Positions 942-54,929 of a stretch of DNA of 64,000 nucleotides are shown one piece after another; position 1 is the first letter of the stretch; each line of letters begins with the position of its first letter. Source of the DNA: Prochloraceae cyanobacterium (lineage in GTDB: Bacteria > Cyanobacteriota > Cyanobacteriia > Cyanobacteriales > JASJDA01). The stretch spans positions 1,820 to 65,819 of the forward strand of contig JASJCW010000006.1 in the NCBI GenBank assembly GCA_030065265.1, written 5' to 3'. The translations under genes were made by a program, and so were the position numbers. The notes under the pieces are model-generated. The model saw nothing but the letters and a program-made list of their open reading frames with translations, did not search any database and had not been told where the DNA came from.

Positions 942-967
942 AATCGGTGTCCCTGGGAACACCGATT
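942..967. repeat. Dispersed 26-bp palindrome, copy 1 of 8 (aatcggtgtccctgggaacaccgatt)
   Basis: Read directly. Consensus AATCGGTGTTCC-TA-GGAACACCGATT. One-base asymmetry in the arms. Separated from the stop of the minus-strand gene 2324..2677 only by the TnpB element. Confidence 0.85.
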
Positions 968-989: not shown

Positions 990-2325
990 TTTTAGCAAGA
1001 TTCGCGAGAATCCTACGATTGTAATCTTTGATTCAATCGTAGATGAATCGCCACCCAGATTTTTTTTTGTGCTATAATTATTTATAGTAAATTAAATTTG
1101 CTCTAAATGCTCAAAGTAGTCAAAGTAAGATTATATCCAAATAGCCAGCAGCAACAAGCCTTAAGCCAGTCTTTTGGTAATACTCGCTGGCTTTGGAATT
1201 ATTGTCTTAATTTGATGAATCAAACTTATATAGATACAGGAAAAGGATTATCGGGATACGAAGTTAAAAAACGAATACCACAACTGAAAAAAGAATACGA
1301 GTGGTTAAAGTTAACTTACTCTCAATGTTTGCAGCAAGTTTGTTTGAACCTTGGTACTGCTTTTAATAACTTCTTTGAACGAAGAGCTAAATATCCTCGT
1401 TTTAAATCAAAGCATGGTAAGCAATCTATACATTATCCTCAAAATGTTAAGCGGATAGAGGATTGTTTAAGGCTGCCAATGATAGGGGACGTAAAAGCAG
1501 TATTTCATCGAGAAATAAAAGGGAAAATAAAGACTGTAACTGTATCTAAGAATAAATCAGATCAATACTATGCTGCTATTTTATTTGAAGATGGAAAAGA
1601 TCAACCAGAAACAAATACTAATGGGAAAGCAATAGGTATAGACCTGGGAATTAATCACTTTGCTATAACTAGTGATGGTAGCAAGTTTGACAACCCTAGA
1701 TGGTTGACTAAACACGAGCATAATTTAAAAATTAAGCAACAAAGATTATCTAGAAGGGAGAAAGGATCTAGTAACAGAAATAAAGCTAGAAAAATTGTAT
1801 CTAAAGTACATAAAAAAATAGCTGATTGTCGCTCTGATTTTCATCACAAGCTATCACGCAGGATAGTAGACGAAAACCAAGTTATTGTAGTTGAAAATCT
1901 AGCAGTTTCAAATATGGTCAAGAACCGCAAACTATCCAAGGCTATAAGTCAAGTTGGCTGGGGACAATTCTGTACTATGCTTAAATATAAAGCAGAACAA
2001 GAGGGGAAAGTATACCAAGAAGTAGATAGGTTCTTTCCTAGCTCAAAAACTTGTAATGTTTGCCTTAACCAAGTGGATAGTTTGCCTCTTGAAATAAGAT
2101 TTTGGAACTGTTCTAACTGCGGTACTAAGCACATAGATCGTGATGTCAACGCCGCCAAAAACATCCGAGATGAAGGACTGCGAATTATTTCCTCTGGGAC
2201 GGGGGATAAAGCCTATCGCCAAACTGTAAGACGAAGTAATAGAGGACGCAAGAAATCTACTACATCGCTTGTTTCTGGGTAGGAAGCTGCTCTTGTAATC
2301 TCTGATTCAAGAGCGGTAGTTCACT
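990..2325 (+). mobile_element. IS200/IS605-superfamily TnpB-only element (no TnpA); boundaries approximate
   Basis: The tnpB ORF is flanked by two hairpins with nearly the same 12-nt loop. Left: ctacgattg-TAATCTTTGATT-caatcgtag (1013..1042). Right: gctcttg-TAATCTCTGATT-caagagc (2289..2314). This is typical of IS200/IS605 subterminal hairpins. Confidence 0.65.
1107..2282 (+). CDS. tnpB: TnpB (IS200/IS605 OrfB-type RNA-guided RuvC nuclease), apparently intact
   Basis: RuvC triad context is present: GIDLGINHFAITSDG (D), VVVENLAVSNM (E), DRDVNAAKNI (D). Zinc ribbon CNVC...CSNCG. Size of 391 aa is typical. Confidence 0.9.
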   Translation: MLKVVKVRLYPNSQQQQALSQSFGNTRWLWNYCLNLMNQTYIDTGKGLSGYEVKKRIPQLKKEYEWLKLTYSQCLQQVCLNLGTAFNNFFERRAKYPRFKSKHGKQSIHYPQNVKRIEDCLRLPMIGDVKAVFHREIKGKIKTVTVSKNKSDQYYAAILFEDGKDQPETNTNGKAIGIDLGINHFAITSDGSKFDNPRWLTKHEHNLKIKQQRLSRREKGSSNRNKARKIVSKVHKKIADCRSDFHHKLSRRIVDENQVIVVENLAVSNMVKNRKLSKAISQVGWGQFCTMLKYKAEQEGKVYQEVDRFFPSSKTCNVCLNQVDSLPLEIRFWNCSNCGTKHIDRDVNAAKNIRDEGLRIISSGTGDKAYRQTVRRSNRGRKKSTTSLVSG

Positions 2326-3089: not shown

Positions 3090-3398
3090 GTGAAGGGAAG
3101 ACAGCTTAGTATAAGGCTTTCAGACCAAGAGAATGAGTTTTTAGAACTAATGGTCGATCGGTGGGGTTGCTCGCGATCTGACGTTATTAGGATGCTGCTT
3201 AGAAACGAATATGAGTTAATAATTAGAGAAAATTCTAACGGTATAACTCTTTCAGAGAAAGAAGAGAGCTTTTTGGATTTTTTAGGTGATAGGTGGGGCT
3301 GTTCGAGATCTGACGCATTTAAAACTCTTATACGTAGCGAATACGAGTTAATCTTGAGAGAGCCGTCAAGCAACTTAAACGATAATGAAAATTCCTAA
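3090..3398 (+). CDS. tandem ribbon-helix-helix (CopG/Arc-type) DNA-binding protein, two RHH units in one chain
   Basis: Two internal repeats: LSIRLSDQENEFLELMVDRWGCSRSDVIRMLLRNEYELIIRE and ITLSEKEESFLDFLGDRWGCSRSDAFKTLIRSEYELILRE. GTG start. The repeat is also visible at the DNA level. Confidence 0.7.
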   Translation: MKGRQLSIRLSDQENEFLELMVDRWGCSRSDVIRMLLRNEYELIIRENSNGITLSEKEESFLDFLGDRWGCSRSDAFKTLIRSEYELILREPSSNLNDNENS

Positions 3399-3810
3399 AA
3401 AACTGCAGAAAAAGATAAAGGATATATATGCTGATGTCGTGGCAAAGTACGACATGGAGAGCGATCGGGTAATTGAGGATCCTAACGAGTTCGCTAATTT
3501 AGGTTTTGTTGACTGGGACATCGTTTTAACTGGTAGATTGCTAGACTCAAAAATAATAGAGACACAAGGGAGCTTTGCCACCAAATTTAGTTGGGATCCC
3601 GTCTCTCCCGAAAATAACTATCACTATGCCAGTGCTGTTTTTTGGGGGTTTAACGCCTGGGGTGGAACTAAGTTTATCCCTGGTCGCCCCTGGTCGGAGA
3701 GAGCTGCACACAATATAGATTGTGTCAGTTACTTTGCCAAAGAACTTAATAAAGCCGGCTATAATGCAAAGGTAATTCGAGATGACACCAGAACGATCGG
3801 CAAGCCATGA
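3385..3810 (+). CDS. hypothetical protein (141 aa)
   Basis: ORF overlaps the end of the RHH gene by 14 nt, so operon-like. No motif recognised. Confidence 0.55.
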   Translation: MKIPKKLQKKIKDIYADVVAKYDMESDRVIEDPNEFANLGFVDWDIVLTGRLLDSKIIETQGSFATKFSWDPVSPENNYHYASAVFWGFNAWGGTKFIPGRPWSERAAHNIDCVSYFAKELNKAGYNAKVIRDDTRTIGKP

Positions 3811-3985: not shown

Positions 3986-4456
3986 TTAAATCCGTGTTCC
4001 TGGGAACACCGATTCATTTTCACTCAAAGAAACTTTTTTGACCATCCAAGCTGTTTCGCCTCCTATTTTACCTTTCTTGAGAAATACCCAATTGCCTCTA
4101 ACAAAAAGATTGACATTCTTTTTAGTCTTAGGTCGAACTCCGATAATTGCCTTTACTTCTGAGGTAGTGAGCAGCCATCATAATTCGCAGGAGGGTACTG
4201 CAACTATAAAACGAAAGCGATTTAAAACAACGCAGTTGTTGCGCTTAAAGTTTTTAGTTGTAGGGGAATCCTGCGCCAACCCTTTATGCAGCACGCGAAT
4301 GTATGGTAAAATACATAAACTCAACTTAAGACACGAAGACTTAAAAAAGAACAGGTGAAATACCTGATACACAACCGCGTATGCAGTCTGCCAATCATTG
4401 GTGAACAGACAATCGTCAGGGGTATAAATTAGACGCTTTTTTAGGAAGTGAATCAT
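3986..4456 (-). pseudogene. possible disrupted gene: ORF 4178..4456 continues in frame after a TGA (4178..4180) into a protein-like C-terminal remnant
   Basis: Minus-strand frame after the TGA reads WLLTTSEVKAIIGVRPKTKKNVNLFVRGNWVFLKKGKIGGETAWMVKKVSLSENESVFPGTRI*, with no usable start codon. The upstream part overlaps non-coding element A. Confidence 0.25.
3989..4014. repeat. Dispersed 26-bp palindrome, copy 2 of 8 (aatccgtgttcctgggaacaccgatt)
   Basis: Read directly. Overlaps the last codons (..NESVFPGTRI*) of the minus-strand coding remnant 3986..4177. Confidence 0.85.
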
Positions 4457-4634
4457 TTTTCAAGTTGAAAAAAGATAAAAGTAGACTCAATTACTTCGGT
4501 ATGAGAGGGTAGGGTCGCCTTGACAGTGCCTGTGTGCTGCCGTAACTGGCAGGTTCGTAGCTTGTGTTACCGCCGAGATTCTGTTTTTAAGAATCCGTTT
4601 CTATAACGGAGTTTAGGAACGGAGTATGTCAATG
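4300..4634 (+). ncRNA. Element A: unclassified structured-RNA-like element, paralogue of element B
   Basis: Near-identical blocks shared with 10399..10745 in reverse complement. UUCG hairpin (tac-ttcg-gta, 4492..4501). Helix 4537..4552 (ctgcc/ggcag) covaries with B (acacc/ggtgt). Closing helix ttgaca (4520..4525) / tgtcaa (4627..4632). TAAAAT -10-like box at 4307..4312. Confidence 0.4.
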
Positions 4635-4684
4635 ATTCTCCTTAGCTTGCTCTAACCACTGATGCTTTTCTATGGGGGAACTCA

Positions 4685-5119
4685 TTACTTGTTAGCTCCA
4701 AAGTAGTTAGCCTCGATCGCTTCAATAGCTTCAGTACCACTTTCAAAGTAGTAAAATTGTTTCCCTAACTCCCACTTAGTTTGAGCTATCCATATATCCC
4801 CTAAACACCAATACTTTCCGATCTCCTTCCCTAGATGTTTAATTACTTTGCGATTGTCAGCATCTATATCTAATTCTGTGGGAGTGCCGCGCCACTGCAA
4901 GTAATCTCTCTCGATCGTTTCGATCGCTTCTTCTCTTGTAGGGTAATAATCAGTCCTGCTAAACTCGCTACTTACCCAATAGTCTCCGTTATTCCAGCTA
5001 GTAACTTGACCTATCTCTCTCCCAGTAGAACGATCGTATATTTTGCCTACTCTTTTGTTGTTTTGAGTGCTGAAAATTACGTCAAATTGCTGCTGTTTGA
5101 CTGCTGTTCTGAGTGTCAT
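4685..5119 (-). CDS. hypothetical protein with internal duplication
   Basis: 144-aa ORF. Two similar halves, each ending in an ...(E)EAIE(T/A)IE... segment, and the W/Y-rich pattern repeats. Confidence 0.6.
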   Translation of the reverse strand: MTLRTAVKQQQFDVIFSTQNNKRVGKIYDRSTGREIGQVTSWNNGDYWVSSEFSRTDYYPTREEAIETIERDYLQWRGTPTELDIDADNRKVIKHLGKEIGKYWCLGDIWIAQTKWELGKQFYYFESGTEAIEAIEANYFGANK

Positions 5120-5291
5120 AATATGTTTAGAAGTAAATAAATTTTGTGTTTTTCGAGCGGTTCTGATATCTCTGGCGGGAGTTTCAACCGCTCATGTCTT
5201 TTATTGTGGCTCCTAAAAATAACAGTGTCAAGTACTAGTGTGCATTTGTGCATTAATGGTGTATATTGGAAATGTAGAGTAAAGAGCAAGC

Positions 5292-5522
5292 ATGAAGATA
5301 AAGAGAGTTCAAGAAGTTGAAGACACGAGAATAGCGAGAAAAATTCTAGTTGCCAGAAAATTAAGCGATAAGAGTTTGGAGCAGATTTGTAAAGAAGTGG
5401 GGGTATCTCGAACTTACTGGTATTCCATTGAAAAAGACGACTTAACAGGTAGCTTGTCTTATGCCAACTTGAAAAAGATTGAAAGTGTCTTGGATATAGA
5501 GTTAGAAATTTACTTTGATTAA
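5292..5522 (+). CDS. XRE-family helix-turn-helix transcriptional regulator
   Basis: SLEQICKEVGVSRTYWYSIEKDD is a classic Cro/CI-type HTH. 76 aa. Divergent from 4685..5119 across a 172-bp region that contains a hairpin (5155..5193) and a tgtgcat direct repeat. Confidence 0.8.
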   Translation: MKIKRVQEVEDTRIARKILVARKLSDKSLEQICKEVGVSRTYWYSIEKDDLTGSLSYANLKKIESVLDIELEIYFD

Positions 5523-5530
5523 TTAAACCA

Positions 5531-5648
5531 GTTAGAATCGAACCTAAAAAGGTTAGAATCGAACCTAATTGAGTTTGAATCGAACCAAAATGGTTAGAAT
5601 CAAAGTTAGAATCGAATATTGATTAAAGATTCAGAGTTAGAAATAAAA
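5531..5648 (+). repeat. array of about 6 direct repeats, GTTAGAATCGAACC-type (iteron or centromere-like)
   Basis: Copies start at 5531, 5552, 5573 (gtttgaatcgaacc), 5593, 5605 and 5636 (degenerate), immediately after the XRE gene stop. Confidence 0.75.
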
Positions 5649-5791
5649 AAATACCCTAGATGACTAGGGGCTGTGTTGTCTATAAATCTCTGTTAAAGTT
5701 TAAATCACTGCCATAGATAATCATCTATCTTTGACTTTGATGTAAGAGTATTATAAATGATATGAGAATAGTTTAATAGGGAGCGATCGCC

Positions 5792-5938
5792 GTGCCGCTT
5801 AAAAAGGGATATAGTAAGAAGAGTATAAGCGACAATATCAAGAGAGAAAGAAAAGTGGGGAAGTCTACCAAGCAAGCAACAGCGATCGCTTTGTCAGTTG
5901 CCAAAAAAGCTAAGGCTAAAGCGAAAAAGAAAAAGTAG
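5792..5938 (+). CDS. small basic protein (48 aa), GYSKKSISDNI...KQATAIALSVAKKAKA type
   Basis: Not in the ORF track. GTG start 8 nt after GGGAG. Translation: VPLKKGYSKKSISDNIKREKKVGKSTKQATAIALSVAKKAKAKAKKKK. It looks more protein-like than the antisense hydrophobic ORF 5773..5967. Confidence 0.45.
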   Translation: MPLKKGYSKKSISDNIKRERKVGKSTKQATAIALSVAKKAKAKAKKKK

Positions 5939-5941
5939 TTA

Positions 5942-6196
5942 TTACAAATATTTCTTTTCAATAGCATATTCTATTGCTTTTGTAGGTTCTATGTTGTAAT
6001 TGAGTATTGCTTTGATCGCTCTCTCTACGTCAGCACGATCGAATTCTACAGCAGCAATTTCAGCTTTGACTTTTTTATGGATATTAGAGCGATAAGACTT
6101 TTTCAAATGCTCTTTATTGAGTTCTAGATATATATCAATTGCTTGCTTTAACGTAGTTTTGAGTTCTGACGGCATGGGAAAAATAATTTCCATCAA
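5942..6196 (-). CDS. hypothetical protein (84 aa)
   Basis: ORF from the track. No motif recognised. Confidence 0.5.
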   Translation of the reverse strand: MMEIIFPMPSELKTTLKQAIDIYLELNKEHLKKSYRSNIHKKVKAEIAAVEFDRADVERAIKAILNYNIEPTKAIEYAIEKKYL

Positions 6197-6307
6197 TATT
6201 AAAAACTCGATCGTACAATCAATTAATTATACAATTGAGTTTTCCACTATTAGAGTTTTTTCTCCAATAAAGCAAAACCCCCGATCCCAGAAGGATCGGG
6301 GGTTTTA

Positions 6308-6550
6308 TTAGAATTCGTTGTTTATGTAAAACTCAAAAGCTTCTATTGGTGATTTAAAATCGTTATCCTCTTGGTTCATTCGGTGTAAGTATTCTAGAAT
6401 CAGCCAATATCCTGTAGTATCTTCAGCTATCGTTGCTATCCTGTAAGAATCTCTATATAGCGTCCATTGCCTCAAGTCTTTATGCCCTGGGATGTAACCC
6501 TTAACAACTTTAAAGTTTACGCTGTCAATCGTCAGTAATTCAGTTTTCAT
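6308..6550 (-). CDS. hypothetical protein (80 aa)
   Basis: ORF from the track. Preceded by the operator-like region 6561..6698. Confidence 0.55.
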   Translation of the reverse strand: MKTELLTIDSVNFKVVKGYIPGHKDLRQWTLYRDSYRIATIAEDTTGYWLILEYLHRMNQEDNDFKSPIEAFEFYINNEF

Positions 6551-6560
6551 GGTTCACTTT

Positions 6561-6698
6561 GTTTTGTTTGTTATGAATCCAGTATAACAATAATATTATT
6601 GTTATGATATTCGCCAAATAACGCCAACAAATATAAGCAATCTGGCTGAAGGTAGCGCAATAATATTATTGTTATACTTAGGACATAACAAACAAAAC
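6561..6698. promoter_or_regulatory. nested palindromic control region
   Basis: Outer inverted arms gttttgtttgttat (6561..6574) and ataacaaacaaaac (6685..6698). Inside are two copies of caataatattattgttat (6588..6605 and 6658..6675), each containing the palindrome CAATAATATTATTG. Confidence 0.6.
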
Positions 6699-6784
6699 AG
6701 AGAGCCAAAATGAACTCACATCTAGCTAAAAAAATCGCCGATTAAGTATTTAGGTTTTCGATATTCTACGCGCACATTTTCCTT

Positions 6785-7609
6785 TTATTCTTCTCCTTCT
6801 AATAATTCTAGTTTTTTTAAAAAATTTAAGCAGTCTTCCCCACTTTCTGTAACTTTAACGTACTTACTTATATCTACTTTCTCCCGACCTCTCATCTCAC
6901 CAATTGTCTTCCCATCCAATCTTTCAATCAATCGTAACCGTGCCAATTTTCGTAATTCATATATAACCTTATGGGTAACTTTATAATCTTGAGCCATATT
7001 GGCCTTCAAGTATTTAAGATGTTTCTTTTCATAATTGGTAAGCAAAGGATAGAATAATTCTTTCTGCCATTGTACCTGCTTTTGCAATTCGATTTTAACG
7101 AGGTCAAACTGTTTTAATTTGTCTTTTAATTGCGTTTCATATGGCTCTAATTTTTTTAATCCTTGCTTGATATTGTCTAATTGCTCATCAATTTCTTTGT
7201 GTCTCTCATTTATTCTTTTCTCGTTCTCTTCTAATGCATCTTGGAGAAGTTTATCTGCATTTTCTTTTAAATCATTTTTATATGCTTTATTATTTTTTTC
7301 TATTTCTTGTTTTGACTGCCAGTTCATAAAACCAATAAAGAATAAAAATAATGTAGCAATTGCTGTGAATGCACCCAAAGTTAAATTATAATAAAACTCT
7401 AAAAAATTACGGTGAGATTTGAATTCTTCAAGAAGAAATTTAGAGTATTCAAGAATTGTTTTACTCGGCTCTGGCGTTTGAGTTATTAGGTTGACTTGTT
7501 CCTTAGATTGACTAGGTATTAGTTTTTGATCCGATTGATTTGTTGCTATTGGATAAAGATTGGCGAAACAAGAGTAACACAAGACTGCTAAGATTATTCC
7601 TCTGAACAT
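6785..7609 (-). CDS. membrane-anchored coiled-coil protein (hypothetical)
   Basis: 274 aa. Hydrophobic N-terminus (IILAVLCYSCF), a second hydrophobic segment (LGAFTAIATLFLFFIGF), then a long K/E/Q-rich region. Confidence 0.6.
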   Translation of the reverse strand: MFRGIILAVLCYSCFANLYPIATNQSDQKLIPSQSKEQVNLITQTPEPSKTILEYSKFLLEEFKSHRNFLEFYYNLTLGAFTAIATLFLFFIGFMNWQSKQEIEKNNKAYKNDLKENADKLLQDALEENEKRINERHKEIDEQLDNIKQGLKKLEPYETQLKDKLKQFDLVKIELQKQVQWQKELFYPLLTNYEKKHLKYLKANMAQDYKVTHKVIYELRKLARLRLIERLDGKTIGEMRGREKVDISKYVKVTESGEDCLNFLKKLELLEGEE

Positions 7610-7754
7610 ATTCTGAAATACTCACTGCTAAGAGCTTATTTCTTTAAATTTTAGGCTACCAACTTTTGCCGGAAAGCTTATCTCTAAAGAGTTTTAAGCT
7701 TTGGAAATTGAGTCAATTGAGAACTTGATTTTGGCTAGTTTCCGCAAAACAATG

Positions 7755-7782
7755 TTGCAACTGTGTTGATGCTTACTATATA
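7755..7782 (+). promoter_or_regulatory. sigma70-like promoter candidate (TTGCAA-16 nt-TATATA)
   Basis: Read directly upstream of 7881..8291. Lies inside a long-range inverted repeat ggctaccaactt ... aagttggtagcc. Confidence 0.35.
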
Positions 7783-7880
7783 TTTTGATGCAATTACTTG
7801 TCCCGCTTCAAGTTGGTAGCCATCAGCAGCAATCTAAAAAAACAACTACAAGTTAGCTACTTTTAATCAATAGCAGTCCC

Positions 7881-8291
7881 TTGACTGCTTTAAATCAATC
7901 AACAGAGGATAAGAAAATGGTCAAAGCTAAAATAGATAAAAGACTCAAGCTAAAAACAACAGATAAACGCTATAAAAACCTTAGTCCAGAACAGGTTGCA
8001 ATTTTCAAAGCTAACGAGATACCAGCGTCAACAGTCCGCTATAGAATCAAAAAAGGTTGGGATGTAGAGCGAGCTATAACTGAAAAACCTAAGACTAGGA
8101 ACAATAACAACGAAGGTGATCTAGGGATGTACGGAACTAAGAATAAAGGCAAGGATCGTCACTTCAGGATTAACAAGGATCTCGACAGTCAATTAGATGA
8201 GATAGTTGCTAACAGTGGCTCTAATCATTCTGATTTTATCGCGGCGATCGTCACTGAATGGCTAGAAAAAAACAAATCGCTTTCATCATAG
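7881..8291 (+). CDS. DNA-binding protein, N-terminal HTH (..STVRYRIKKGWDVERAI..) and C-terminal RHH-like segment
   Basis: 136-aa ORF with a TTG start. An ATG at 7917 (MVKAKIDK) is an alternative start. The C-terminus RHFRINKDLDSQLDEIVANSGSNHSDFIAAIVTEWL looks CopG-like. Confidence 0.6.
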   Translation: MTALNQSTEDKKMVKAKIDKRLKLKTTDKRYKNLSPEQVAIFKANEIPASTVRYRIKKGWDVERAITEKPKTRNNNNEGDLGMYGTKNKGKDRHFRINKDLDSQLDEIVANSGSNHSDFIAAIVTEWLEKNKSLSS

Positions 8292-8382
8292 AGTTGAGAG
8301 CGATCAACATATAACAAACAAAACAAAGTTAATCAATCGAACTAATCAATCGAACTAACTAAGTTGCCATAATTATAACAAA

Positions 8383-8793
8383 CTAGTTAGGCTGAAACAA
8401 TCCATAAAATTGTTGACCTAACTCGCCTTTAACATATGGATTCTGCGGGTATAGTTTCAAAGTAAACTTCCCTTTTAACCCGTCGATCTCAATTTCCCCT
8501 TCTGACAAATGAGTGATGTCAGAAGGGAATATTTTAGGATCCGTCAATCTTCCCCTAATCTCGATTATTTTCTGGTCTTTACCCTGAGAATAGCGATCGG
8601 TGGGAGATGTCGGCGATTCATTCTCGTGTACGATCGCTCTGAACTCTCTAACATTGCTGCTAGCTCTCCCTATCCTCAATTGTCCAGTAGTTGGATCGGT
8701 GATTATCTGGGAAGTGGTAAAGAATAGAGTAGCATTAGCATTATTCTCTAAAGGTTCAAAAGCTGTTGTTGGCGGTCTGAAGTCAGAATACAT
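8383..8793 (-). CDS. hypothetical protein (136 aa)
   Basis: ORF from the track. Overlaps the next gene by 11 nt (operon). Confidence 0.55.
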   Translation of the reverse strand: MYSDFRPPTTAFEPLENNANATLFFTTSQIITDPTTGQLRIGRASSNVREFRAIVHENESPTSPTDRYSQGKDQKIIEIRGRLTDPKIFPSDITHLSEGEIEIDGLKGKFTLKLYPQNPYVKGELGQQFYGLFQPN

Positions 8794-9103
8794 TGCTAGT
8801 AGGTGTTTTAAAAGCTTCGATCGCGGGCATACCTTTTTTGAGTCTCCTATAAAAAGTTCCCCTGCTTATCTTATAATAGCTACACCACTGACTCACATTC
8901 ATTGTGGCTCTTTCAATCGTGTAGAGCGTCTGCTTGCTAGCTTTTGTTTTCAGTCCAAATATCTTGCGCAGCGACTTCCCCATAGAGTAAAGGCGATCAA
9001 ATTCCTGCTCTGACAAATCATATTGCTTGCACCAATAAGCTTTCCTTCTAGTTTTTCTGTTCAGAGTAATTAACTCGTCACTAGCTATGTAATCTCTTCT
9101 CAT
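8783..9103 (-). CDS. small HTH protein (hypothetical)
   Basis: 106 aa. ISRGTFYRRLKKGMPAIEAF resembles the KGW/KGM HTH segments of 7881..8291 and 10102..10372. Confidence 0.55.
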   Translation of the reverse strand: MRRDYIASDELITLNRKTRRKAYWCKQYDLSEQEFDRLYSMGKSLRKIFGLKTKASKQTLYTIERATMNVSQWCSYYKISRGTFYRRLKKGMPAIEAFKTPTSNVF

Positions 9104-9136
9104 CTCATCTAGTTTAATCTGTGAATCTATGTTGAT

Positions 9137-9239
9137 TAGAACGCCTAAGAACGGCTGAAATCCTACCTCTCACGTCATATTGACGAAAAAGCCGAAACAT
9201 TGTTGAACGCGTTCTATTTTCGTTCTATTCCCGTTCTAC
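9137..9239. promoter_or_regulatory. phased CGTTCT/AGAACG boxes in a divergent intergenic region
   Basis: cgttcta(t/c) at 9210, 9221 and 9232 (11-bp period). Inverted agaacg within tagaacg (9137..9143) and aagaacg (9147..9153) (10-bp period). Confidence 0.55.
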
Positions 9240-9281
9240 TTGATGTTATATTAGAGCTATTTGTTACTTGTGGTAAGTTTA

Positions 9282-9842
9282 ATGAGTCCATATACTAAAG
9301 AAGAGATAGAGAAATTATTTATAGAATCGCCACAAGATCTCACCATATCAGAGATAGCGCGACAGACAGGACGATCTAAAAGTGTCGTGCATTATTGGAT
9401 AAATAAAAATCATTGGAATAAGAAAAGGAAAGAATTTTGGGATGGTACGCAAGCTATGGAGGAGCCTTCTATAGCTCCTGCTGTCAAGAGAGCCAACCAA
9501 AGTTTAAATAAGATTCAAAAAATATTAAATTTAGATGCTGCAGGTTTAGCTTTAGATCATCTCGTAACTTACCAGAAGTTTAGAAAGTTTTCAGAGTTAA
9601 TCTTGAGTCAGATAATCAAGAAAGTCAACGAATCGCCAGATCCGATCGCTGAGATAAAAAATATAAATATAAAAGACATCAATTTACTCAGTCAGATAAG
9701 CGATCGCTCTATTAAAGGCGAGAGTGCATCTATAGCACTTCACTTGCAGATTAATCCGAGTATGGCGATCGCCAGTCTGGAAAATATGGGTTATGTAGTA
9801 ATCGATCCTAACGATTCTATTGAAACTATCCCTACTGAATGA
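9282..9842 (+). CDS. HTH protein, possible small terminase subunit
   Basis: N-terminal HTH LTISEIARQTGRSKSVVHYWINKN. Lies about 1.6 kb upstream of the large terminase, with element B and a minus-strand gene in between. The ATG at 9282 is preferred over the TTG at 9261. Function is inferred from context only. Confidence 0.4.
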   Translation: MSPYTKEEIEKLFIESPQDLTISEIARQTGRSKSVVHYWINKNHWNKKRKEFWDGTQAMEEPSIAPAVKRANQSLNKIQKILNLDAAGLALDHLVTYQKFRKFSELILSQIIKKVNESPDPIAEIKNINIKDINLLSQISDRSIKGESASIALHLQINPSMAIASLENMGYVVIDPNDSIETIPTE

Positions 9843-9867
9843 ATCGGTGTTCCTAGGAACACCGATT
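9842..9867. repeat. Dispersed 26-bp palindrome, copy 3 of 8 (perfect)
   Basis: aatcggtgttcctaggaacaccgatt. Its first base is the last base of the TGA stop of 9282..9842. Confidence 0.9.
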
Positions 9868-10025
9868 GATGTAAGCGATTACTTAAACTGAGTATCGATA
9901 TAGATATTTTATCAAATAATCAAATTATGATATAGTTTAATTGCTTATCTAAATAATTGTCGCTTATTGGTTGGTATTGATTGCATTACTTCTGTTGTCT
10001 CCGAGGTTAGACTTTTTTTATTAAA

Positions 10026-10047
10026 AAGCTAGAGAAAGCTCTAGCTT
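10026..10047. terminator. hairpin aagctagag-aaag-ctctagctt flanked by T/A runs (possibly bidirectional)
   Basis: Read directly. A T-run precedes it and T-rich sequence follows. Confidence 0.4.
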
Positions 10048-10101
10048 ATTCTTTTAAAGGGATGTTTAGTTTTTTGCTTAAATGCTGTAAAACAACTTCT
10101 C

Positions 10102-10372
10102 TTACATAGTCGGATAGCGATAAATACTCTCAGCTGCGATCGCTTGCAGCTTGTTATCCCAGTATTCAGGAATGGTAAATTGTCTGCGGCGATCGTCAGC
10201 CACTGTAGTGGCAAAAGTTCCGTCAGGATTCCTTACAATTGCAGGTTTTCTTTTTAATGGTTGAGAGATAGCTCCCCTCCATATCCCAACCGAGTGAGAG
10301 CCTTTTATTTAAAGCTTTGCGAGTGATTCCGTTATTGAGAGCGATTGCGAGATTTTTTCTCGAAATTTTCAT
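10102..10372 (-). pseudogene. HTH gene broken by a frame change at an A-rich tract (or programmed or sequencing frameshift)
   Basis: Frame 1: MKISRKNLAIALNNGITRKALNKRLSLGWDMEGSYLSTIKKK... stops at 10223. The adjacent frame continues KRKPAIVRNPDGTFATTVADDRRRQFTIPEYWDNKLQAIAAESIYRYPTM* to 10102. The switch is at attaaaaagaaaacc. Confidence 0.3.
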
Positions 10373-10398
10373 CTACTAACAGACAATAACCTCAGACT

Positions 10399-10745
10399 CT
10401 TTGACATCCTCTCTCCGTTAACCCTACGGGTTTAACGGGAGATTCCAAAACTGAAATCTCAAGGCTCGGAGGTAGCAATAAGCTACGAACACACCAATTA
10501 CGGTGTCACACTGGCACTGTCAAGGCAACCCTACTCTCTCATACCGAAGTATTTGAGTATACTTTTTTTTCTATCAACCTATGTTTAATTCACTCCCTGC
10601 TAAGTATCTAATTCAGACCCCTGACTGTCACCCGTTCACCTTTAAGGCGAGTTGCATAAGCGGTTGTGTCTCAGGTATTTCACCTGTACTAATCGCAGAT
10701 CGTCGTGTTTTAGCCGATACAGATATTATACATCGGCTAAACTCT
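10399..10745 (-). ncRNA. Element B: unclassified structured-RNA-like element, paralogue of element A
   Basis: Reverse complement aligns with 4300..4634: same UUCG hairpin, covarying helix (10491..10506), closing helix (ttgaca 10401..10406 / tgtcaa 10518..10523), caggt-gaaat-acctg hairpin, and TATAAT on the minus strand at 10725..10730. Confidence 0.4.
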
Positions 10746-10773
10746 TTATTCTGTAAAGATTTCAGCTTTTTAT

Positions 10774-11433
10774 TTATTGATTTTTTACGCTCGTGGAGTC
10801 CCCTGCGCGAAATACAGATGGCATTATATCTGAGGTTATTGTTTTAGATTCAGAATTGTTGACAATTTTTATCCCTTGAATCAGATCTCGAATAAAGACC
10901 AGATCGGTGGAAATGTAATTTTCAGGTAGCGACTGTTCGATCTCTTCTATCTGCCACTGAGAGCGATCGCAATTTAACAGCAGGTTGCCTGCTATTTTTA
11001 CAGCTAGAGTAAAGTAAGGCTTATAACCGACTGTCCCATTTAATGGCAATTGCTTTGCTTCTATTTTGAGAAAAGAAATTATAGCCTTTTGTAAGTGGGA
11101 GTAAGAACTAATTTTACTGTCATTGGCTAAAAAATACAAAAAATCTTCTAACTCATTTGAAGTCTCTAAATGTTCTGGGATGCTAACTTGTAGATTAGAT
11201 TTGCTTTGAAAGTCCTGTACTCTTTTGATAGTTTCTATGAAATTTTGTATTTCCTCGCCACTTTTTTTAAGACTTTTAGATTCGAGGCAATCTTGAAAGC
11301 TACGCAAACAACAGATTAAAAAGTCAGATTTGTAGCTGACAATCTTGCCTAATTCAGAATCCGCTAATATTCTTTTAAACTCAGTAGGGAACGATTTTAT
11401 TAATCGTTGTATCTTTTTCTCGTCTAGTTTCAT
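10774..11433 (-). CDS. hypothetical protein (219 aa)
   Basis: ORF from the track. Its ATG overlaps the terminase ATG on the other strand (CATGATG, 11431..11437). Confidence 0.55.
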   Translation of the reverse strand: MKLDEKKIQRLIKSFPTEFKRILADSELGKIVSYKSDFLICCLRSFQDCLESKSLKKSGEEIQNFIETIKRVQDFQSKSNLQVSIPEHLETSNELEDFLYFLANDSKISSYSHLQKAIISFLKIEAKQLPLNGTVGYKPYFTLAVKIAGNLLLNCDRSQWQIEEIEQSLPENYISTDLVFIRDLIQGIKIVNNSESKTITSDIMPSVFRAGDSTSVKNQ

Positions 11434-12877
11434 GATGCTAAATAGAATTATTACCCCTAAATATAAAGGTAAAATAAAAGACTGGGGTAAACTGCATTCA
11501 TTTACTCAAACTGTGGATGCTGCGAGTTATCCAGTGTTCGAGCCAAATCCTGGCGGTCAACAGGAAATCTTTGATCGTCTCTCTCTCAGTAGCATTTATG
11601 GCGGTGCTTATCGCTGGTATTGGATCCTCGGTGGCATAAACTCAGGTAAGTCTACTTGTGCTGCTGCTTTTATCTGCAATCAAGCCAGATTAGATCCCAG
11701 TATTAGAATACTCATAACTGCTAACAGCTATCCTCAGCTAATGATGAGTACTTTAGTTGCTCTAGCTGAATTCTGCGAGAAATTTGGCTACAAGCTAGAA
11801 CCATCTCTACCTTCGCCAGAAGACACAGCAGCAAAAATAGCAGCATTAAAGCATTGTAAAATAGAAGGTGCTTATTGTTTCGTCAGATCTGCTGATAGTT
11901 TCACTGGTGCAACTGAAAAAGCCAAACAAGGAGGCCGCGGCATACAAGTAAGAATTGTTTGGTGGGACGAGGGAAGTTACAACGATCGTATGTGCTTTCA
12001 AACTATAGACGGACGTTTAGGACGTGGCGCGGGTAGTGTAAAAGGGATAGGAATAATCAGCAGCAGTATCAATAGGATTAACCCATTTAACTGGACATAC
12101 GATCTATTCGCTAGCGATCGTCGAGATGAATTACAAAAGCAGATATATGGTAGTACGATTATCCCCACCACGGAAAACATACACGCCGATCCCGATTTCG
12201 TACGATCTCAAGAAGCTTCACTTACTCCAGAATTAAGAGCATTAGAACTCGAAGGTAGATTCGTTAGCATTACCACTGGTCGAGTGTTCAATTACTTCAA
12301 ACGCGATCGCCACTTAAAATCGCTATCAGTCAATCTCAATTTATACGTGTGTGTCTCTTTTGATTTCAACCGATCGCCAGCTACCTGCTTGATAGCACAG
12401 AGCAGTGGACGATCGGTTGAAGTGGTAAGAGAGTTTTATTTATTGGAATCGGACACCATGCAACTAGCTGAAGCTGTGGCACAGTATCTAAGGAAATTGG
12501 GAGTTTCTGTATTAGTATATGGCGACAGTACGGGCATTCAAAGAACAGCTAATAGTAAATTTACAAACTGGCAAATAGTCTGGGATACCTTTAGCAGACA
12601 TGGGGTTTATGGCGTTAGAAAATATCCCGATCGCAATGCCAGCGTTTTAGATAGCGTCCACAGCGTCAATAATGCTTTCAATCGAGATGAGATCTTTATC
12701 GATCCTAGCTGTAAGGAACTCATAGCAGATCTGGAATTTTTGACGTGGGATAAAAATGACAAAATAGACAAGCGCGACATCAAGCGATCGCACTTAGGTG
12801 ATTGTTTGAGATATTTGATAGATGGCATACTTCCATATAGAAGAGAAACCATCAAGAGATCTGGTCGTTGGGGCTGA
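11432..12877 (+). CDS. terL: terminase large subunit
   Basis: Walker A ILGGINSGKSTCAA. Walker B RIVWWDEGS. C-terminal nuclease-like acidic motifs (VSFDFN, VYGDSTG, GDCLRY). ATG at 11432 chosen within the track ORF 11345..12877. Confidence 0.9.
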   Translation: MMLNRIITPKYKGKIKDWGKLHSFTQTVDAASYPVFEPNPGGQQEIFDRLSLSSIYGGAYRWYWILGGINSGKSTCAAAFICNQARLDPSIRILITANSYPQLMMSTLVALAEFCEKFGYKLEPSLPSPEDTAAKIAALKHCKIEGAYCFVRSADSFTGATEKAKQGGRGIQVRIVWWDEGSYNDRMCFQTIDGRLGRGAGSVKGIGIISSSINRINPFNWTYDLFASDRRDELQKQIYGSTIIPTTENIHADPDFVRSQEASLTPELRALELEGRFVSITTGRVFNYFKRDRHLKSLSVNLNLYVCVSFDFNRSPATCLIAQSSGRSVEVVREFYLLESDTMQLAEAVAQYLRKLGVSVLVYGDSTGIQRTANSKFTNWQIVWDTFSRHGVYGVRKYPDRNASVLDSVHSVNNAFNRDEIFIDPSCKELIADLEFLTWDKNDKIDKRDIKRSHLGDCLRYLIDGILPYRRETIKRSGRWG

Positions 12878-19874: not shown

Positions 19875-20367
19875 ATCTCAAGATTTTTTCAATAAACTTA
19901 AATTTAGTTCCCTTCGAGACGATCGTCTCGCTATTAAATGTGATTGTACCACCAGCAGGTAATAAATCGTTAATTATACCCGATCGCTCGCTATACGGCT
20001 GATTTATTGGCTCGTGGATGGGGTTCATATAGTCTCTAACCACTATAGGTTTATAAACTGTTGGATCTTGCTGAGCGATCGCTACCAGTTGAGATAATAC
20101 CTCGTAAATAACAAATCGTCCGTCATTAGTGGTTATTTGGAACCCATAGCGTCTGGGAGTAGTGCGAACGAAAAAATTAGCAGCGCCTTGTATTGGCTGA
20201 TTGGCGTTCCCTTCCCATATCGGAGAGTAACCGCCAAAGTCATTAAAAGGAACTCGCAAAAAATTTTGACCGCTATCAACAGTAAATAAGTCAGCAGTAG
20301 TAGCGTTACTGTAAATAGTTGCCAGATTAGCTGCGATCGGGAATAGAAGATGGTTAAATTTACCCAT
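19867..20367 (-). CDS. hypothetical protein (166 aa)
   Basis: ORF from the track. Overlaps the next gene by 8 nt. Confidence 0.6.
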   Translation of the reverse strand: MGKFNHLLFPIAANLATIYSNATTADLFTVDSGQNFLRVPFNDFGGYSPIWEGNANQPIQGAANFFVRTTPRRYGFQITTNDGRFVIYEVLSQLVAIAQQDPTVYKPIVVRDYMNPIHEPINQPYSERSGIINDLLPAGGTITFNSETIVSKGTKFKFIEKILRFA

Positions 20368-20370
20368 AAT

Positions 20371-20667
20371 TCAATCAGCGCGATCTATTTCCTGATAGAA
20401 GTCAAAAGACCACTGACTCTCAAAGTCGTCTTCTATTGTATACTCTCTTTCGTCTACATCTATATACTTGAAAATTTCCGATTCTACAACAGTTATGTAA
20501 AACATCCTATCTTCTTTAGAATATTCGCGATCGCTCGTCAGTATCTCCCACTTCAAGCATTCGGTAACTTCATAGCAATCGTCGTCGTGCTCGGCGAAAT
20601 AGTCCGATATACTCGGTATGCGATCCGTGTAATAGTTCTCAACTAAGCTGCTGACATAATCCAACAC
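20371..20667 (-). CDS. strongly acidic small protein (98 aa)
   Basis: By my count 15 D and 14 E versus 8 K/R. No recognised motif. Confidence 0.55.
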   Translation of the reverse strand: MLDYVSSLVENYYTDRIPSISDYFAEHDDDCYEVTECLKWEILTSDREYSKEDRMFYITVVESEIFKYIDVDEREYTIEDDFESQWSFDFYQEIDRAD

Positions 20668-20804
20668 TAACTCGTCACTGCAGATATCACCATCTATAAG
20701 ATCGAAATTTTCAAGCTCTCTATCGGAGTCTAAAAACCTTAAAAACTTGATTAAACTGCAATATTTACTTAATTCCTTAGAGTTAAAGCTGAAGTTATTT
20801 GTTG

Positions 20805-21734: not shown

Positions 21735-21980
21735 TTGTTAGCTTGTATGAGTAAAATAATAATAATAAATCGTTCTAAAAGACTCTCATTAGAAGGTAGG
21801 ATATTGGAATGTTTATTCAAAAATCCTTCTGGACTGACAGCTAAGCAGATTGCGAATTTTCTCAACCGTCCTGTATCTTCAATAAATATATGTTTAAAAA
21901 ACTTAATATCTTACAAGCAAGTAAGCAGAAAAAGGAATGATTTAAATGAATCAGTGTTCCTAGGGACACCGATTAAATAG
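21735..21980 (+). CDS. winged-helix (MarR/ArsR-like) small DNA-binding protein
   Basis: LTAKQIANFLNRPVSSINICLKNLISYKQV. The last codons (NESVFLGTPIK*) are encoded by palindrome copy 4. Confidence 0.5.
   Translation: MLACMSKIIIINRSKRLSLEGRILECLFKNPSGLTAKQIANFLNRPVSSINICLKNLISYKQVSRKRNDLNESVFLGTPIK
21949..21974. repeat. Dispersed 26-bp palindrome, copy 4 of 8 (aatcagtgttcctagggacaccgatt)
   Basis: Lies where the convergent genes 21735..21980 (+) and 21973..22434 (-) end. Confidence 0.85.
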
Positions 21981-33174: not shown

Positions 33175-33199
33175 ATCGGTGTTCCGAGGAACACCGATT
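33174..33199. repeat. Dispersed 26-bp palindrome, copy 5 of 8 (aatcggtgttccgaggaacaccgatt)
   Basis: Starts on the last base of the fibre gene's TGA. The convergent gene 33202..33531 ends 3 nt after it. Confidence 0.9.
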
Positions 33200-45534: not shown

Positions 45535-45560
45535 AATCGGTGTTCCTAGGAACACCGTTT
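45535..45560. repeat. Dispersed 26-bp palindrome, copy 6 of 8 (aatcggtgttcctaggaacaccgttt)
   Basis: 3 nt after the stop of 45274..45531. One arm mismatch at the outer end. Confidence 0.85.
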
Positions 45561-54903: not shown

Positions 54904-54929
54904 AATCGGTGTTCCTAGGAACACCGATT
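54904..54929. repeat. Dispersed 26-bp palindrome, copy 7 of 8 (perfect)
   Basis: aatcggtgttcctaggaacaccgatt, 6 nt after the stop of 54082..54897. Confidence 0.9.

What the first reader, a model, noticed from the sequence alone, without database searches (positions are those of the whole stretch)
4300..10745. Two paralogous ~330-bp structured-RNA-like elements in inverted orientation bracket a 5.8-kb regulatory segment
Element A (4300..4634, plus strand) and element B (10399..10745, minus strand) align over their whole length, but indels break every reading frame. The track ORFs 4178..4456 and 10581..10847 share only their first ~20 residues. Conservation is therefore at the nucleotide or structure level. 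Shared helices include a UAC-UUCG-GUA hairpin and CAGGU-GAAAU-ACCUG. One helix covaries fully (A: CUGCC/GGCAG; B: ACACC/GGUGU). One helix is expanded in B (UCCCGUUAAACCC-GUA-GGGUUAACGGA versus UCCGUU-UCUAU-AACGGA in A). A long-range closing helix UUGACA/UGUCAA is conserved in both. A G-U pair in A (GUAG/UUAC) is compatible only with the A(+)/B(-) strand. Both carry a -10-like box at the same 5' position (TAAAAT in A, TATAAT in B). The two RNAs would be transcribed towards each other across genes 4685..10372. I cannot assign them to any RNA family from memory. Because an IsrB gene is present in this window, orphan omega-RNA (HEARO-like) scaffolds are one specific hypothesis. Other possibilities are a novel phage sRNA pair, cis-leaders, or ends of a composite or invertible element.
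Basis: partly seen in the sequence, partly recalled or inferred. Interest (0 to 1): 0.8.

Follow-up and report, generated by a model that had tools for sequence, protein, structure and literature searches.

The report
Structured-RNA cassette inserted twice in cyanophage
Two diverged copies of a roughly 440-bp non-coding cassette, also found in cyanobacterial chromosomes, sit in this phage genome; each carries its own promoter and a roughly 310-nt highly structured RNA that matches no catalogued RNA family, and the cassette is built like a gene-less IS200/IS605 transposon carrying a guide-RNA-like cargo.

Summary
A (+) and B (-) are homologous, non-coding, and fold into a shared structure. With nine distinct copies (A, B and seven cyanobacterial loci), 48 proposed pairs are 94% paired against 34-41% when the partners are slid, and 16 pairs show compensatory changes. 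G·U outnumbers A·C 43 to 3, which fixes the RNA strand as A(+)/B(-). No Rfam 15 family matches.

The interpretation needs revising in four ways:
- A and B are not HEARO/omega RNAs. The phage's IsrB has its own HEARO RNA just outside the window.
- A and B are not sister copies (1.8% bootstrap). Related phages lack them but share the genes lying between them, so the 5.8-kb "bracket" is incidental.
- Host copies lie in unrelated housekeeping contexts.
- The conserved unit is larger than reported: 458 bp (4175-4632) and 421 bp (10821-10401). It has sharp ends (CCATC... to ...ATGTCAA), a hairpin near each end, no terminal inverted repeats and no target duplication.

This layout resembles a gene-less IS200/IS605 element (PATE) whose RNA ends at the right boundary, as a TnpB-type guide RNA does. 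That last step is inferred. No partner nuclease, transposase or multicopy spread was found.

The parts
4175..4632 (+). Cassette A, whole conserved unit (458 bp): CCATC...left hairpin...promoter...structured RNA...right hairpins...ATGTCAA
   Evidence: The left limit comes from the alignment of left flanks of five type-X copies; the right limit is the end of conservation after TCAA.
4186..4276 (+). A, left subterminal long hairpin module (type X; CAACTATAAAACGAAAGCG...CGCTTAAAGTTTTTAGTTG)
   Evidence: The MFE fold of the left module is -34.9 kcal/mol. The stem covaries with L008 (CGGGTA/TACCCG) and L020 (CGACCA/TGGTCG).
4304..4312 (+). A, extended -10-like box TGgTAAAAT (predicted promoter of the RNA)
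   Evidence: A -10 box sits at the same aligned position in all copies (TATAAT, TAAAAT or TATGAT). No -35 was found by the consensus scan. Expression was not measured.
4320..4632 (+). A, predicted ~310-nt structured RNA (helices H0-H8 plus pseudoknot H10). H1 4352-4366; UUCG hairpin about 4486-4506; UUGACA 4520-4525 pairs with UGUCAA 4627-4632; H5 4536-4551
   Evidence: Consensus folds, helix table, formal pair count. The 5' end is inferred from the -10 box and the 3' end from the end of conservation.
4578..4632 (+). A, right-end hairpins closed by AUUC/GAGU, then AUGUCAA (element ends in TCAA)
10401..10821 (-). Cassette B, whole conserved unit (421 bp). Its left end overlaps the last 15 codons and the stop codon of ORF 10774-11433
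   Evidence: Alignment of left flanks of type-Y copies, and the end of conservation after TCAA.
10760..10821 (-). B, left module, degenerate: GGGGACTCC is present but the hairpin is largely deleted compared with L014, L017 and L009
   Evidence: fold only -9.7 kcal/mol.
10725..10732 (-). B, -10 box TATAAT preceded by TG
10401..10717 (-). B, predicted ~315-nt structured RNA, with the same helices as A
10401..10464 (-). B, right-end hairpins (GAGAUU/AAUCUC; CCGUUAAACCC/GGGUUAACGG) closed by CCUU/GAGG, then AUGUCAA
   Evidence: The profile of this type of right end matches the left ends of L017 (E=0.003) and L014 (E=0.02).

Best explanation
A and B are two separately acquired copies of a short non-coding cassette (420-520 bp) that also occurs in the chromosomes of several cyanobacteria.

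SHOWN:
- The cassette has sharp conserved ends (CCATC on the left, ATGTCAA on the right).
- It has a long hairpin about 20 nt inside the left end.
- It has a conserved -10 promoter box.
- It has a ~310-nt RNA-like region with at least nine helices and one pseudoknot, maintained by compensatory changes.
- The last helix of that region (UUGACA/UGUCAA) ends exactly at the right boundary, just after one or two hairpins.
- It matches no Rfam family and encodes no protein.

INFERRED:
- The cassette is a gene-less derivative of an IS200/IS605-type transposon (a PATE). A Y1 transposase encoded elsewhere would move it as single-stranded DNA.
- The RNA is the element's guide-RNA scaffold of the TnpB type. 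It would be transcribed from the internal promoter, run through the right end into flanking DNA to pick up a guide, and be used in trans by a TnpB-family nuclease. That nuclease would re-cut empty sites so that the element is retained.
- In this phage both copies have one degraded end, so they are probably immobile now, while the RNA part is intact.
For: RNA structure:
- 94.0% of 432 cells are paired, against 34-41% in the slid controls.
- 16 pairs have both-side changes, against 3-9 when slid and 10.2+-1.6 in shuffles (0/500 shuffles reach the observed value).
- The covariation score is 0.346, against 0.174 in shuffles.
- Cell counts are 342 Watson-Crick, 43 G·U and 3 A·C.

Non-coding.

Host copies sit in unrelated contexts:
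- psbP|acylphosphatase, S1|HAD-metK and ATP-grasp|phosphoesterase
- ndk|purK
- sulfotransferase|TPR, leuS and Cu-oxidase|argF

The elements are accessory in the phage lineage. A and B are sisters in 1.8% of bootstraps.

Cassette ends:
- Sharp boundaries, no TIR, no TSD, and hairpins at both ends on the same strand.
- The right end is TCAA in 8 of 9 copies.
- The left flank reads TTAC, ATAC, TATC, TTTC, TTCC and similar.
- For comparison, IS608 uses TTAC 19 nt 5' of the left hairpin and TCAA 10 nt 3' of the right hairpin (PMC3201880).

No intrinsic terminator lies between the RNA and the flank. The same genome carries a TnpB gene and an IsrB gene. One host copy is truncated against an IscB/IsrB fragment.
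Against: - No nuclease or Y1 transposase gene adjoins any copy.
- The RNA has no similarity to the 3' end of the resident tnpB.
- No protein among 5.8 billion ends with the peptide encoded by the RNA's 5' part, so no autonomous relative was seen.
- The 21-nt core matched only once per MAG, whereas PATEs are usually multicopy.
- Left-right hairpin similarity is significant in only one locus by pairwise alignment (L014, z=4.5; eight others at background). It is modest by profile (E=0.003 and 0.02 for type Y; 0.24 for type X).
- The left-flank motif is loose.
- Expression, RNA ends and mobility were not observed.
- At ~310 nt and with its own promoter, the RNA is atypical for TnpB guide RNAs.
Confidence: 0.45

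Rival explanations
1. It is a free-standing, trans-acting host RNA gene, such as a ribonucleoprotein scaffold or a ribozyme of unknown function. The phage has captured it twice as independent 'moron' transcription units, in order to supplement, replace or decoy the host RNA during infection. The upstream hairpin would be an insulator or terminator belonging to the gene. The cassette would not itself be mobile.
For: - It has its own conserved -10 box.
- It has a very strongly conserved single-stranded core and a complex fold.
- There is one core match per MAG.
- The neighbours are housekeeping genes.
- The RNA part stays intact in A and B even though one cassette end has decayed in each.
- Cyanobacterial synteny is generally poor, so varied neighbours are expected for any gene (own knowledge).
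Against: - It does not explain the sharp left boundary about 130-190 nt upstream of the promoter, or the conserved long hairpin there.
- It does not explain the exact coincidence of the RNA's end with the unit's end in TCAA.
- It does not explain two independent insertions into one phage.
- It does not explain the patchy distribution or the truncated copy.
Confidence: 0.33
2. It is a cis-acting 5' leader, such as a riboswitch-like element or a processive antiterminator, that controls whatever gene lies downstream. The mutually exclusive pairings of UUGACA with either GUCAGGG or the 3' UGUCAA would form the switch.
For: - In 6 of 8 host loci the next gene is co-oriented, often within 100 nt, with no terminator between them.
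- In L007 the conserved AUG lies at the start of the HAD gene.
- Two alternative helices compete for the same strand.
Against: - The downstream genes are unrelated to each other: acylphosphatase, HAD, purK, leuS and a sulfotransferase.
- A and L021 face a convergent gene, and L008 has no gene for about 600 nt.
- The 'GAGG' before the AUG is one arm of a covarying helix and not a ribosome-binding site.
- The alternative helix H9 shows no covariation and has a break in L014.
Confidence: 0.08
3. This is the first reader's specific hypothesis: A and B are orphan IscB/IsrB omega (HEARO-like) RNA scaffolds.
For: An IsrB gene is in the same genome, and standalone omega RNAs are known (PMC10055086).
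Against: - There is no RF02033 match at E<=10 for A or B, nor for the host copies.
- The same model finds the real omega RNAs at L001:19302-19492 and L017:1157-1474 (92 bits).
- The internal promoter and strand rule out a 5' guide taken from the left flank.
- There is no sequence similarity to the IsrB upstream region.
Confidence: 0.03
4. It is a DNA-level feature: inverted repeats that allow inversion of the 5.8-kb segment, or the ends of a composite transposon.
For: The two copies are in inverted orientation about 5.8 kb apart. Invertible regions flanked by 500-700-bp inverted repeats exist in Anabaena phages (bioRxiv 10.64898/2026.02.14.705889).
Against: - A and B are 74-77% identical and their longest identical run is 17 bp.
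- The strand-asymmetric G·U excess and the promoter point to an RNA.
- The inner genes are ordinary backbone genes shared with phages that lack the repeats.
- No recombinase appears among the inner ORFs.
- An independent assembly is collinear with the window.
- Host genomes hold single copies.
Confidence: 0.03

Closest known systems
PATEs: gene-less IS200/IS605-family elements that carry an omega RNA used in trans (Meers et al. 2023, PMC10055086; IS608 end rules, PMC3201880)
   Same: - Short non-coding unit with sharp ends, no terminal inverted repeats and no target duplication.
- A hairpin near each end on one strand.
- The right end is TCAA, a few nt after the hairpin, and the left flank is TTAC-like.
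- A structured RNA runs to the right boundary.
- It is found in a genome that also holds TnpB and IsrB elements.
   Different: - No transposase or nuclease partner was identified.
- It is apparently single-copy per genome.
- Similarity between the left and right hairpins is weak.
- The RNA is long (~310 nt), has its own promoter, and is unrelated to the resident TnpB's 3' region.
TnpB right-end guide RNA (reRNA/omega RNA; Karvelis et al. 2021, PMC8612924)
   Same: - The topology matches: the scaffold ends at the transposon's right end and transcription would continue into flanking DNA.
- The terminal segment pairs back into the scaffold next to the would-be guide.
   Different: - Canonical reRNAs overlap the 3' end of tnpB, and there is no ORF here.
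- No sequence or protein link to any TnpB was found.
HEARO / IscB-IsrB omega RNA (Rfam RF02033)
   Same: It is a large structured RNA of the same transposon superfamily, and genuine examples are present in this genome and in L017.
   Different: - There is no covariance-model match.
- It sits at the opposite end of the element and has the opposite guide polarity.
- It is not next to an IscB/IsrB gene.
Large orphan structured RNAs shared by bacteria and their phages (GOLLD, ROOL)
   Same: It is a complex, conserved fold of unknown biochemical function, encoded as an independent unit in both phage and bacterial DNA.
   Different: - There is no Rfam match to these families.
- It is about half their size.
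- It is cyanobacterial.
- It is embedded in a bounded cassette.
Invertible segments of cyanophages A-1(L), N-1 and Elbi ('genomic isomerism', bioRxiv 10.64898/2026.02.14.705889)
   Same: There are inverted repeats of a few hundred bp in a cyanophage, with a TnpB gene nearby.
   Different: - In those phages about 30 kb lies between 500-700-bp repeats, and both isomers were observed.
- Here the copies are about 75% identical, share at most 17 identical bases in a row, and gave no BLAST match in the deposited phage collection.

Membership tests
HEARO / IscB-IsrB omega RNA (RF02033) | Match to the family covariance model | tested here: not met
   There is no hit at E<=10 for A or B, and none for host copies. 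The model does detect the true omega RNAs.
HEARO / IscB-IsrB omega RNA (RF02033) | Lies directly upstream of, and co-oriented with, an IscB/IsrB gene, with the guide at the 5' end outside the left end | tested here: not met
   No such gene lies next to A, B or the full-length host copies. In L017 the IscB fragment is convergent with a truncated copy. The promoter is internal to the cassette.
IS200/IS605 non-autonomous element (PATE) | Sharp ends without terminal inverted repeats or target-site duplication | tested here: met
   Flank alignments show homology starting at CCATC and ending at TCAA. The ends are not complementary and the flanks are not duplicated.
IS200/IS605 non-autonomous element (PATE) | Subterminal hairpins at both ends on the same strand, similar to each other | tested here: inconclusive
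   Strong hairpins are present at both ends. Left-right similarity is significant only in L014 (z=4.5) and by profile in L017 and L014 (E=0.003 and 0.02). It is weak for type X (E=0.24).
IS200/IS605 non-autonomous element (PATE) | Conserved target motif in the left flank (TAM) and cleavage motif at the right end (TEM) | tested here: inconclusive
   The right end is TCAA in 8 of 9 copies (TTAA in L009; L006 is ambiguous). The left flank is only loosely conserved (WWNC; C at position -1 in 8 of 9).
IS200/IS605 non-autonomous element (PATE) | Several copies per genome, and a Y1 transposase available in trans | tested here: not met
   There is one exact core match per MAG. That scan undercounts, because the core varies in L014, L020 and L021. 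The phage has two copies. No Y1 transposase was seen in the loci held, and whole host genomes could not be searched.
TnpB right-end guide RNA | The scaffold ends at the right end and the transcript continues into the flank as a guide | not testable with these tools
   The data are consistent: conservation stops at TCAA and there is no terminator. No transcript data are available.
TnpB right-end guide RNA | Overlaps or adjoins a tnpB gene, or has autonomous relatives that do | tested here: not met
   There is no ORF, no similarity to the resident tnpB 3' region, and no protein ending in the encoded peptide.
Any catalogued RNA family (6S, RNase P, tmRNA, group I/II introns, GOLLD, ROOL, riboswitches) | Match to an Rfam 15 covariance model, or a tRNA/tmRNA prediction | tested here: not met
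   Searches returned only chance-level hits.
Phage invertible segment | Near-identical inverted repeats and a recombinase; both orientations present | tested here: not met
   Identity is 74-77% and the longest identical run is 17 bp. No recombinase domain appears in the inner ORFs. An independent assembly is collinear. Read-level inversion was not testable.
cis-regulatory leader / riboswitch | Consistent association with one downstream gene family | tested here: not met
   The downstream genes differ in every locus, and in three copies no co-oriented gene follows.

The most novel reading that the evidence does not exclude
The ~310-nt RNA is the scaffold of a previously unrecognised guide-RNA class that travels without its nuclease. 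It would be an RNA-only mobile cassette kept at low copy in cyanobacteria and captured twice by a phage. Its partner would be an uncharacterised TnpB-family or other RNA-guided protein. Alternatively, it has been domesticated into a host or phage function such as RNA-guided regulation or targeting of competitor DNA.
Probability: 0.15. Interest if true: 0.8.

Novelty: new variant of a known kind. Interest (0 to 1): 0.62.

Why it matters
If the reading is right, this is a clean natural example of a guide-RNA-type scaffold spreading as a stand-alone cassette between cyanobacterial chromosomes and a phage. The phage genome would then carry four members of the same transposon superfamily: a TnpB element, an IsrB element and two RNA-only cassettes. 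That makes phages visible as vehicles for such elements. It also supplies a new, well-supported RNA fold (16 covarying pairs from only nine sequences) whose protein partner could be sought, with possible value for compact genome-editing systems.

Even if the transposon reading fails, this remains a new ~310-nt structured RNA family of cyanobacteria that a phage has acquired twice. Capture of host RNA genes other than tRNAs or tmRNA is, to my knowledge, uncommon.

Tried and rejected
1. Rfam at gathering and permissive thresholds on the window, on A, on B and on five host loci gave nothing.
2. tRNA/tmRNA prediction found none.
3. The 6S RNA lead, prompted by purK next to the element in L010, was dropped. 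There is no 6S hit anywhere in L010 and the fold is not rod-like.
4. BLASTN of A, B and a host copy against deposited phages and plasmids found no match.
5. Five exact or gapped patterns in IMG/VR gave no hit, and TerL has no relative in IMG/VR.
6. The protein-coding reading was rejected.
7. The conserved 'GAGG-AUG' as a ribosome-binding site plus start codon was rejected. GAGG is one arm of a covarying helix, and the AUG opens a gene only in L007.
8. A within-phage duplication of A and B was rejected.
9. A composite or invertible element was rejected.
10. Strong left-right hairpin homology, which I first judged by eye, held up in only one locus when tested against shuffles. I therefore lowered confidence in the transposon reading.
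11. A search for an autonomous relative through the sense-frame peptide found no candidates.
12. An attempt to fetch a second assembly of the phage through a 99% TerL variant failed because it is not on record.
13. The palindrome near A and beyond B (3989-4018, 9838-9867) turned out to be a genome-wide intergenic motif unrelated to the element.

Full report

Yes. The repeat finder reports three collinear inverted blocks between 4348-4563 and 10480-10690 at 74-92% complementarity. MAFFT aligns A(+) with B(-) over about 300 nt with several indels. Two conserved cores each occur exactly twice in the window and never in 100 shuffles.

The window is 64,000 bases of a circular genome of about 66.2 kb. 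An independent metagenome scaffold (L001) joins window position 1 to position 64000 through 2,215 bases that the window lacks. Low-stringency BLASTN and a profile HMM find no third copy in the whole circle.

The sense strand carries 6-12 stops in every frame in every copy. The partly open antisense frame is interrupted by stops in two host copies and by a frameshift in A. Conservation is therefore not at the protein level.

**2. Genomic setting**

The genome is phage-like. It has a large terminase at 11435-12877 (PHROG 2, 1e-29), a small-terminase-like HTH protein at 9261-9842, a portal-type DUF4055 protein downstream, and many small ORFs of unknown function.

It also carries a TnpB gene (1107-2282; OrfB_IS605 and Cas12f1-like_TNB domains). 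It carries an IsrB-type gene as well (RRXRR domain), whose start lies just beyond position 64000.

**3. The HEARO / orphan omega RNA hypothesis**

Rfam 15 finds nothing in the window at gathering score. It finds nothing for A at E<=10 and only chance-level hits for B.

The region directly upstream of the IsrB gene does match HEARO over the full model (L001:19302-19492, 46.9 bits, E=1.9e-7). So IsrB has its own omega RNA, and A and B are unrelated to it in both sequence and model. This specific hypothesis is rejected.

**4. Homologues elsewhere**

No match was found in IMG/VR, in deposited phages or in plasmids.

A 21-nt core pattern found three cyanobacterial MAGs: Waterburya, Limnoraphis and a Xenococcaceae member. 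A three-block pattern found two contigs from the same metagenome project as the phage. In all of these the whole element is present.

Gene callers sometimes call a spurious ORF on the antisense strand of the element. I therefore searched the protein database with those pseudo-peptides and recovered 11 further clusters. Four of them gave DNA: three new full-length copies (L014, L020, L021) and one truncated copy (L017-L019). In these copies the 'invariant' core differs at several positions. The exact-pattern scans therefore undercount the family.

The neighbours are ordinary chromosomal genes and are different every time:
- psbP | acylphosphatase
- S1 protein | HAD hydrolase and metK
- ATP-grasp | phosphoesterase
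- ndk | purK
- sulfotransferase | TPR protein
- leuS
- Cu-oxidase | argF and nblA

. Rfam has no family for the host copies either.

**5. Structure**

I used nine distinct full-length copies. The hypervariable 3' hairpins were excised so that the conserved arms aligned (alignment A6). I then tested a structure of 48 pairs in 11 helices:
- 94.0% of cells are paired, against 34-41% when the 3' partners are slid by 1-3 columns.
- 16 pairs have changes on both sides, against 3-9 when slid and 10.2+-1.6 in shuffles (0/500 reach the observed value).
- The covariation score is 0.346, against 0.174 in shuffles (0/500) and 0.04-0.09 when slid.

The best helix (CUGCC/GGCAG, ACACC/GGUGU, UCAAC/GUUGG, UUGCU/AGCAA, ACCCC/GGGGU, CUGCG/CGCAG) covaries at all five pairs.

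A hand table of the helix arms gives 342 Watson-Crick, 43 G·U, 3 A·C and 6 other cells.

Additional structural features:
- A helix closes the variable 3' hairpins (AUUC/GAGU in some copies, CCUC/GAGG in others).
- A long-range helix UUGACA/UGUCAA tolerates only G·U changes.
- A candidate pseudoknot GAAC/GUUC is compensated as AAAC/GUUU in Limnoraphis.
- An alternative pairing, GUCAGGG/CCUUGAC, competes with the long-range helix. It shows no covariation and has one break.

A -10 box (TATAAT, TAAAAT or TATGAT, usually preceded by TG) sits at the same aligned position in all copies. The consensus scan finds no -35 hexamer and no intrinsic terminator after the element.

**6. Relation of A to B, and to the 5.8-kb segment**

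Three related phage contigs (TerL 56-74% identical) lack the element in the regions held. They nevertheless encode homologues of genes that lie between A and B: 7881-8291, 8383-8793, 9261-9842 and, more weakly, 5942-6196. The segment is ordinary phage backbone.

In a neighbour-joining analysis of 254 gap-free columns, A and B are sisters in 1.8% of 500 bootstraps. A is closest to the Xenococcaceae copy (79.9%), and B to L009 and L006 (about 83%). The tree is otherwise poorly resolved.

The longest identical run between A and B is 17 bp. An independent assembly is collinear with the window.

The bracket is therefore incidental. The two copies arrived separately, and inversion by homologous recombination is unlikely. 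Invertible regions of about 30 kb flanked by 500-700-bp repeats do exist in Anabaena phages (bioRxiv 10.64898/2026.02.14.705889). Those are a different case.

**7. The conserved unit is larger than the RNA**

Aligning the flanks shows that homology starts sharply at (C)CATC, about 130-190 nt upstream of the first RNA hairpin. It ends at ...GAGKATGTCAA. In window coordinates the units are 4175-4632 (458 bp) and 10821-10401 (421 bp).

Between the left boundary and the promoter lies a long hairpin module. It comes in two types, which go with the two types of 3' hairpin. Its stem sequences differ between loci while pairing is kept.

The ends are not inverted repeats, and the flanks show no duplication. 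The four bases before CATC read CAGC, ATGC, ATAC, TTCC, TTAC, AAAC, GATT, TATC and TTTC. The unit ends in TCAA in eight of nine copies.

This is the layout of IS200/IS605 elements. IS608 inserts 3' of TTAC, which lies 19 nt 5' of the left hairpin and outside the element. It is cleaved after TCAA, which lies 10 nt 3' of the right hairpin and inside the element. Transposition involves no gain or loss of DNA (PMC3201880).

An RNA that starts at an internal promoter and whose last helix ends at the right boundary has the topology of a TnpB-type right-end guide RNA, not of an IscB-type one.

**8. Limits of that reading**

I tested the left-right hairpin similarity that I had first judged by eye. 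Pairwise local alignment is above shuffles in only one of nine loci (L014, z=4.5). A profile of type-ii right ends matches the left ends of L017 and L014 at E=0.003 and 0.02, with no shuffle scoring as well. The type-i profile gives only E=0.24.

Further weaknesses:
- No nuclease or transposase adjoins any copy.
- The resident tnpB 3' region is unrelated.
- No database protein ends with the peptide encoded by the one open sense frame.
- Each MAG gave a single core match.

In A the right hairpin has diverged, and in B the left hairpin is largely deleted. Both are therefore probably immobile now, yet their RNA helices are intact.

I put the transposon-borne guide-RNA reading at about 0.45. A free-standing trans-acting RNA gene captured twice by the phage gets about 0.33. 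A cis-acting leader gets about 0.08, and the remaining readings are lower.

**9. What is shown and what is inferred**

Shown:
- This is a new structured RNA family with strong covariation.
- It has a fixed strand and a conserved -10 box.
- It sits in a bounded cassette with hairpins near both ends.
- It occurs in unrelated cyanobacterial loci.
- It is present in this phage as two non-sister copies.
- It is not HEARO and not any other Rfam family.

Inferred:
- Transcription and the RNA ends.
- Mobility through a Y1 transposase.
- Use by a TnpB-family protein.
- Any benefit to the phage.

**10. Verdict**

Its framing as a pair bracketing a regulatory segment, and as HEARO-like, is wrong. It is best described as a new variant within the world of IS200/IS605-associated RNAs, with a substantial chance of being an unrelated new RNA class.

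Noticed in passing
window 945-964, 3992-4011, 9845-9864, 21952-21971, 33177-33196, 45538-45557, 54907-54926, 59512-59531: A palindrome CGGTGTTCC-NN-GGAACACCG occurs 8 times (0 expected), always between genes and several times between convergent gene ends. These are probably the phage's bidirectional terminators or a common operator. Two copies lie near A and beyond B, which explains repeat I5.
   Followed up: partly
L001:19302-19492 and 19556-20689 (= just beyond window position 64000, minus strand; the gene continues to window 63136): The IsrB-type gene (RRXRR domain) has its own HEARO/omega RNA directly upstream (46.9 bits, below Rfam's gathering score of 83, E=1.9e-7). Both lie partly in the 2.2 kb of the circular genome that the window does not include.
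   Followed up: yes
window 1107-2282 (+), with 2283-2325: This is a TnpB gene (OrfB_IS605 and Cas12f1-like_TNB domains), preceded by a TGCTATAAT extended -10 box at about 1070. It is followed by a hairpin GCTCTTG...CAAGAGC and GGTAGTTCAC, the likely end of its own guide RNA. The ends of this element were not defined.
   Followed up: partly
L017:1157-1883 (same in L018, L019): In a Xenococcaceae MAG, a full HEARO RNA (92.4 bits) and the first 64 codons of an IscB/IsrB gene run head-on into a copy of the element truncated after its 5' half. This is a rearranged locus joining two different transposon-type RNAs.
   Followed up: partly
window 5524-5616: Three to four tandem 21-nt repeats (TAAACCAGTTAGAATCGAACC and variants) lie immediately after the Cro/cI-like HTH_3 gene 5292-5522. 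They may be operator sites or iterons of a replication origin.
   Followed up: no
window 6557-6601 and 6658-6702: A 45-nt inverted repeat (87% complementary) with a 56-nt spacer lies in the gap between ORFs 6308-6550 and 6785-7609.
   Followed up: no
window 10774-10821: The left end of cassette B supplies the last 15 codons and the stop codon of ORF 10774-11433. The insertion therefore rewrote the C-terminus of that protein.
   Followed up: partly
L009:~190-260 versus L010:~3390-3440: Two near-identical host copies from the same metagenome project share the element and the downstream purK gene. They diverge completely upstream of a breakpoint inside the left hairpin, so a rearrangement has occurred at that hairpin.
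   Followed up: no
window 10223-10372 (-), 7881-8291 (+), 8783-9103 (-): A 49-aa ORF just after B carries an 'RLSLGWDxE' motif. The motif recurs in two inner ORFs that match PHROGs annotated as the DNA-binding part of HNH endonucleases, or as PVL ORF-50-like. This looks like a small paralogous family of DNA-binding modules.
   Followed up: no
window 35578-44949 (+): A single ORF of 3,123 codons takes up about 14% of the genome. It was not annotated here.
   Followed up: no
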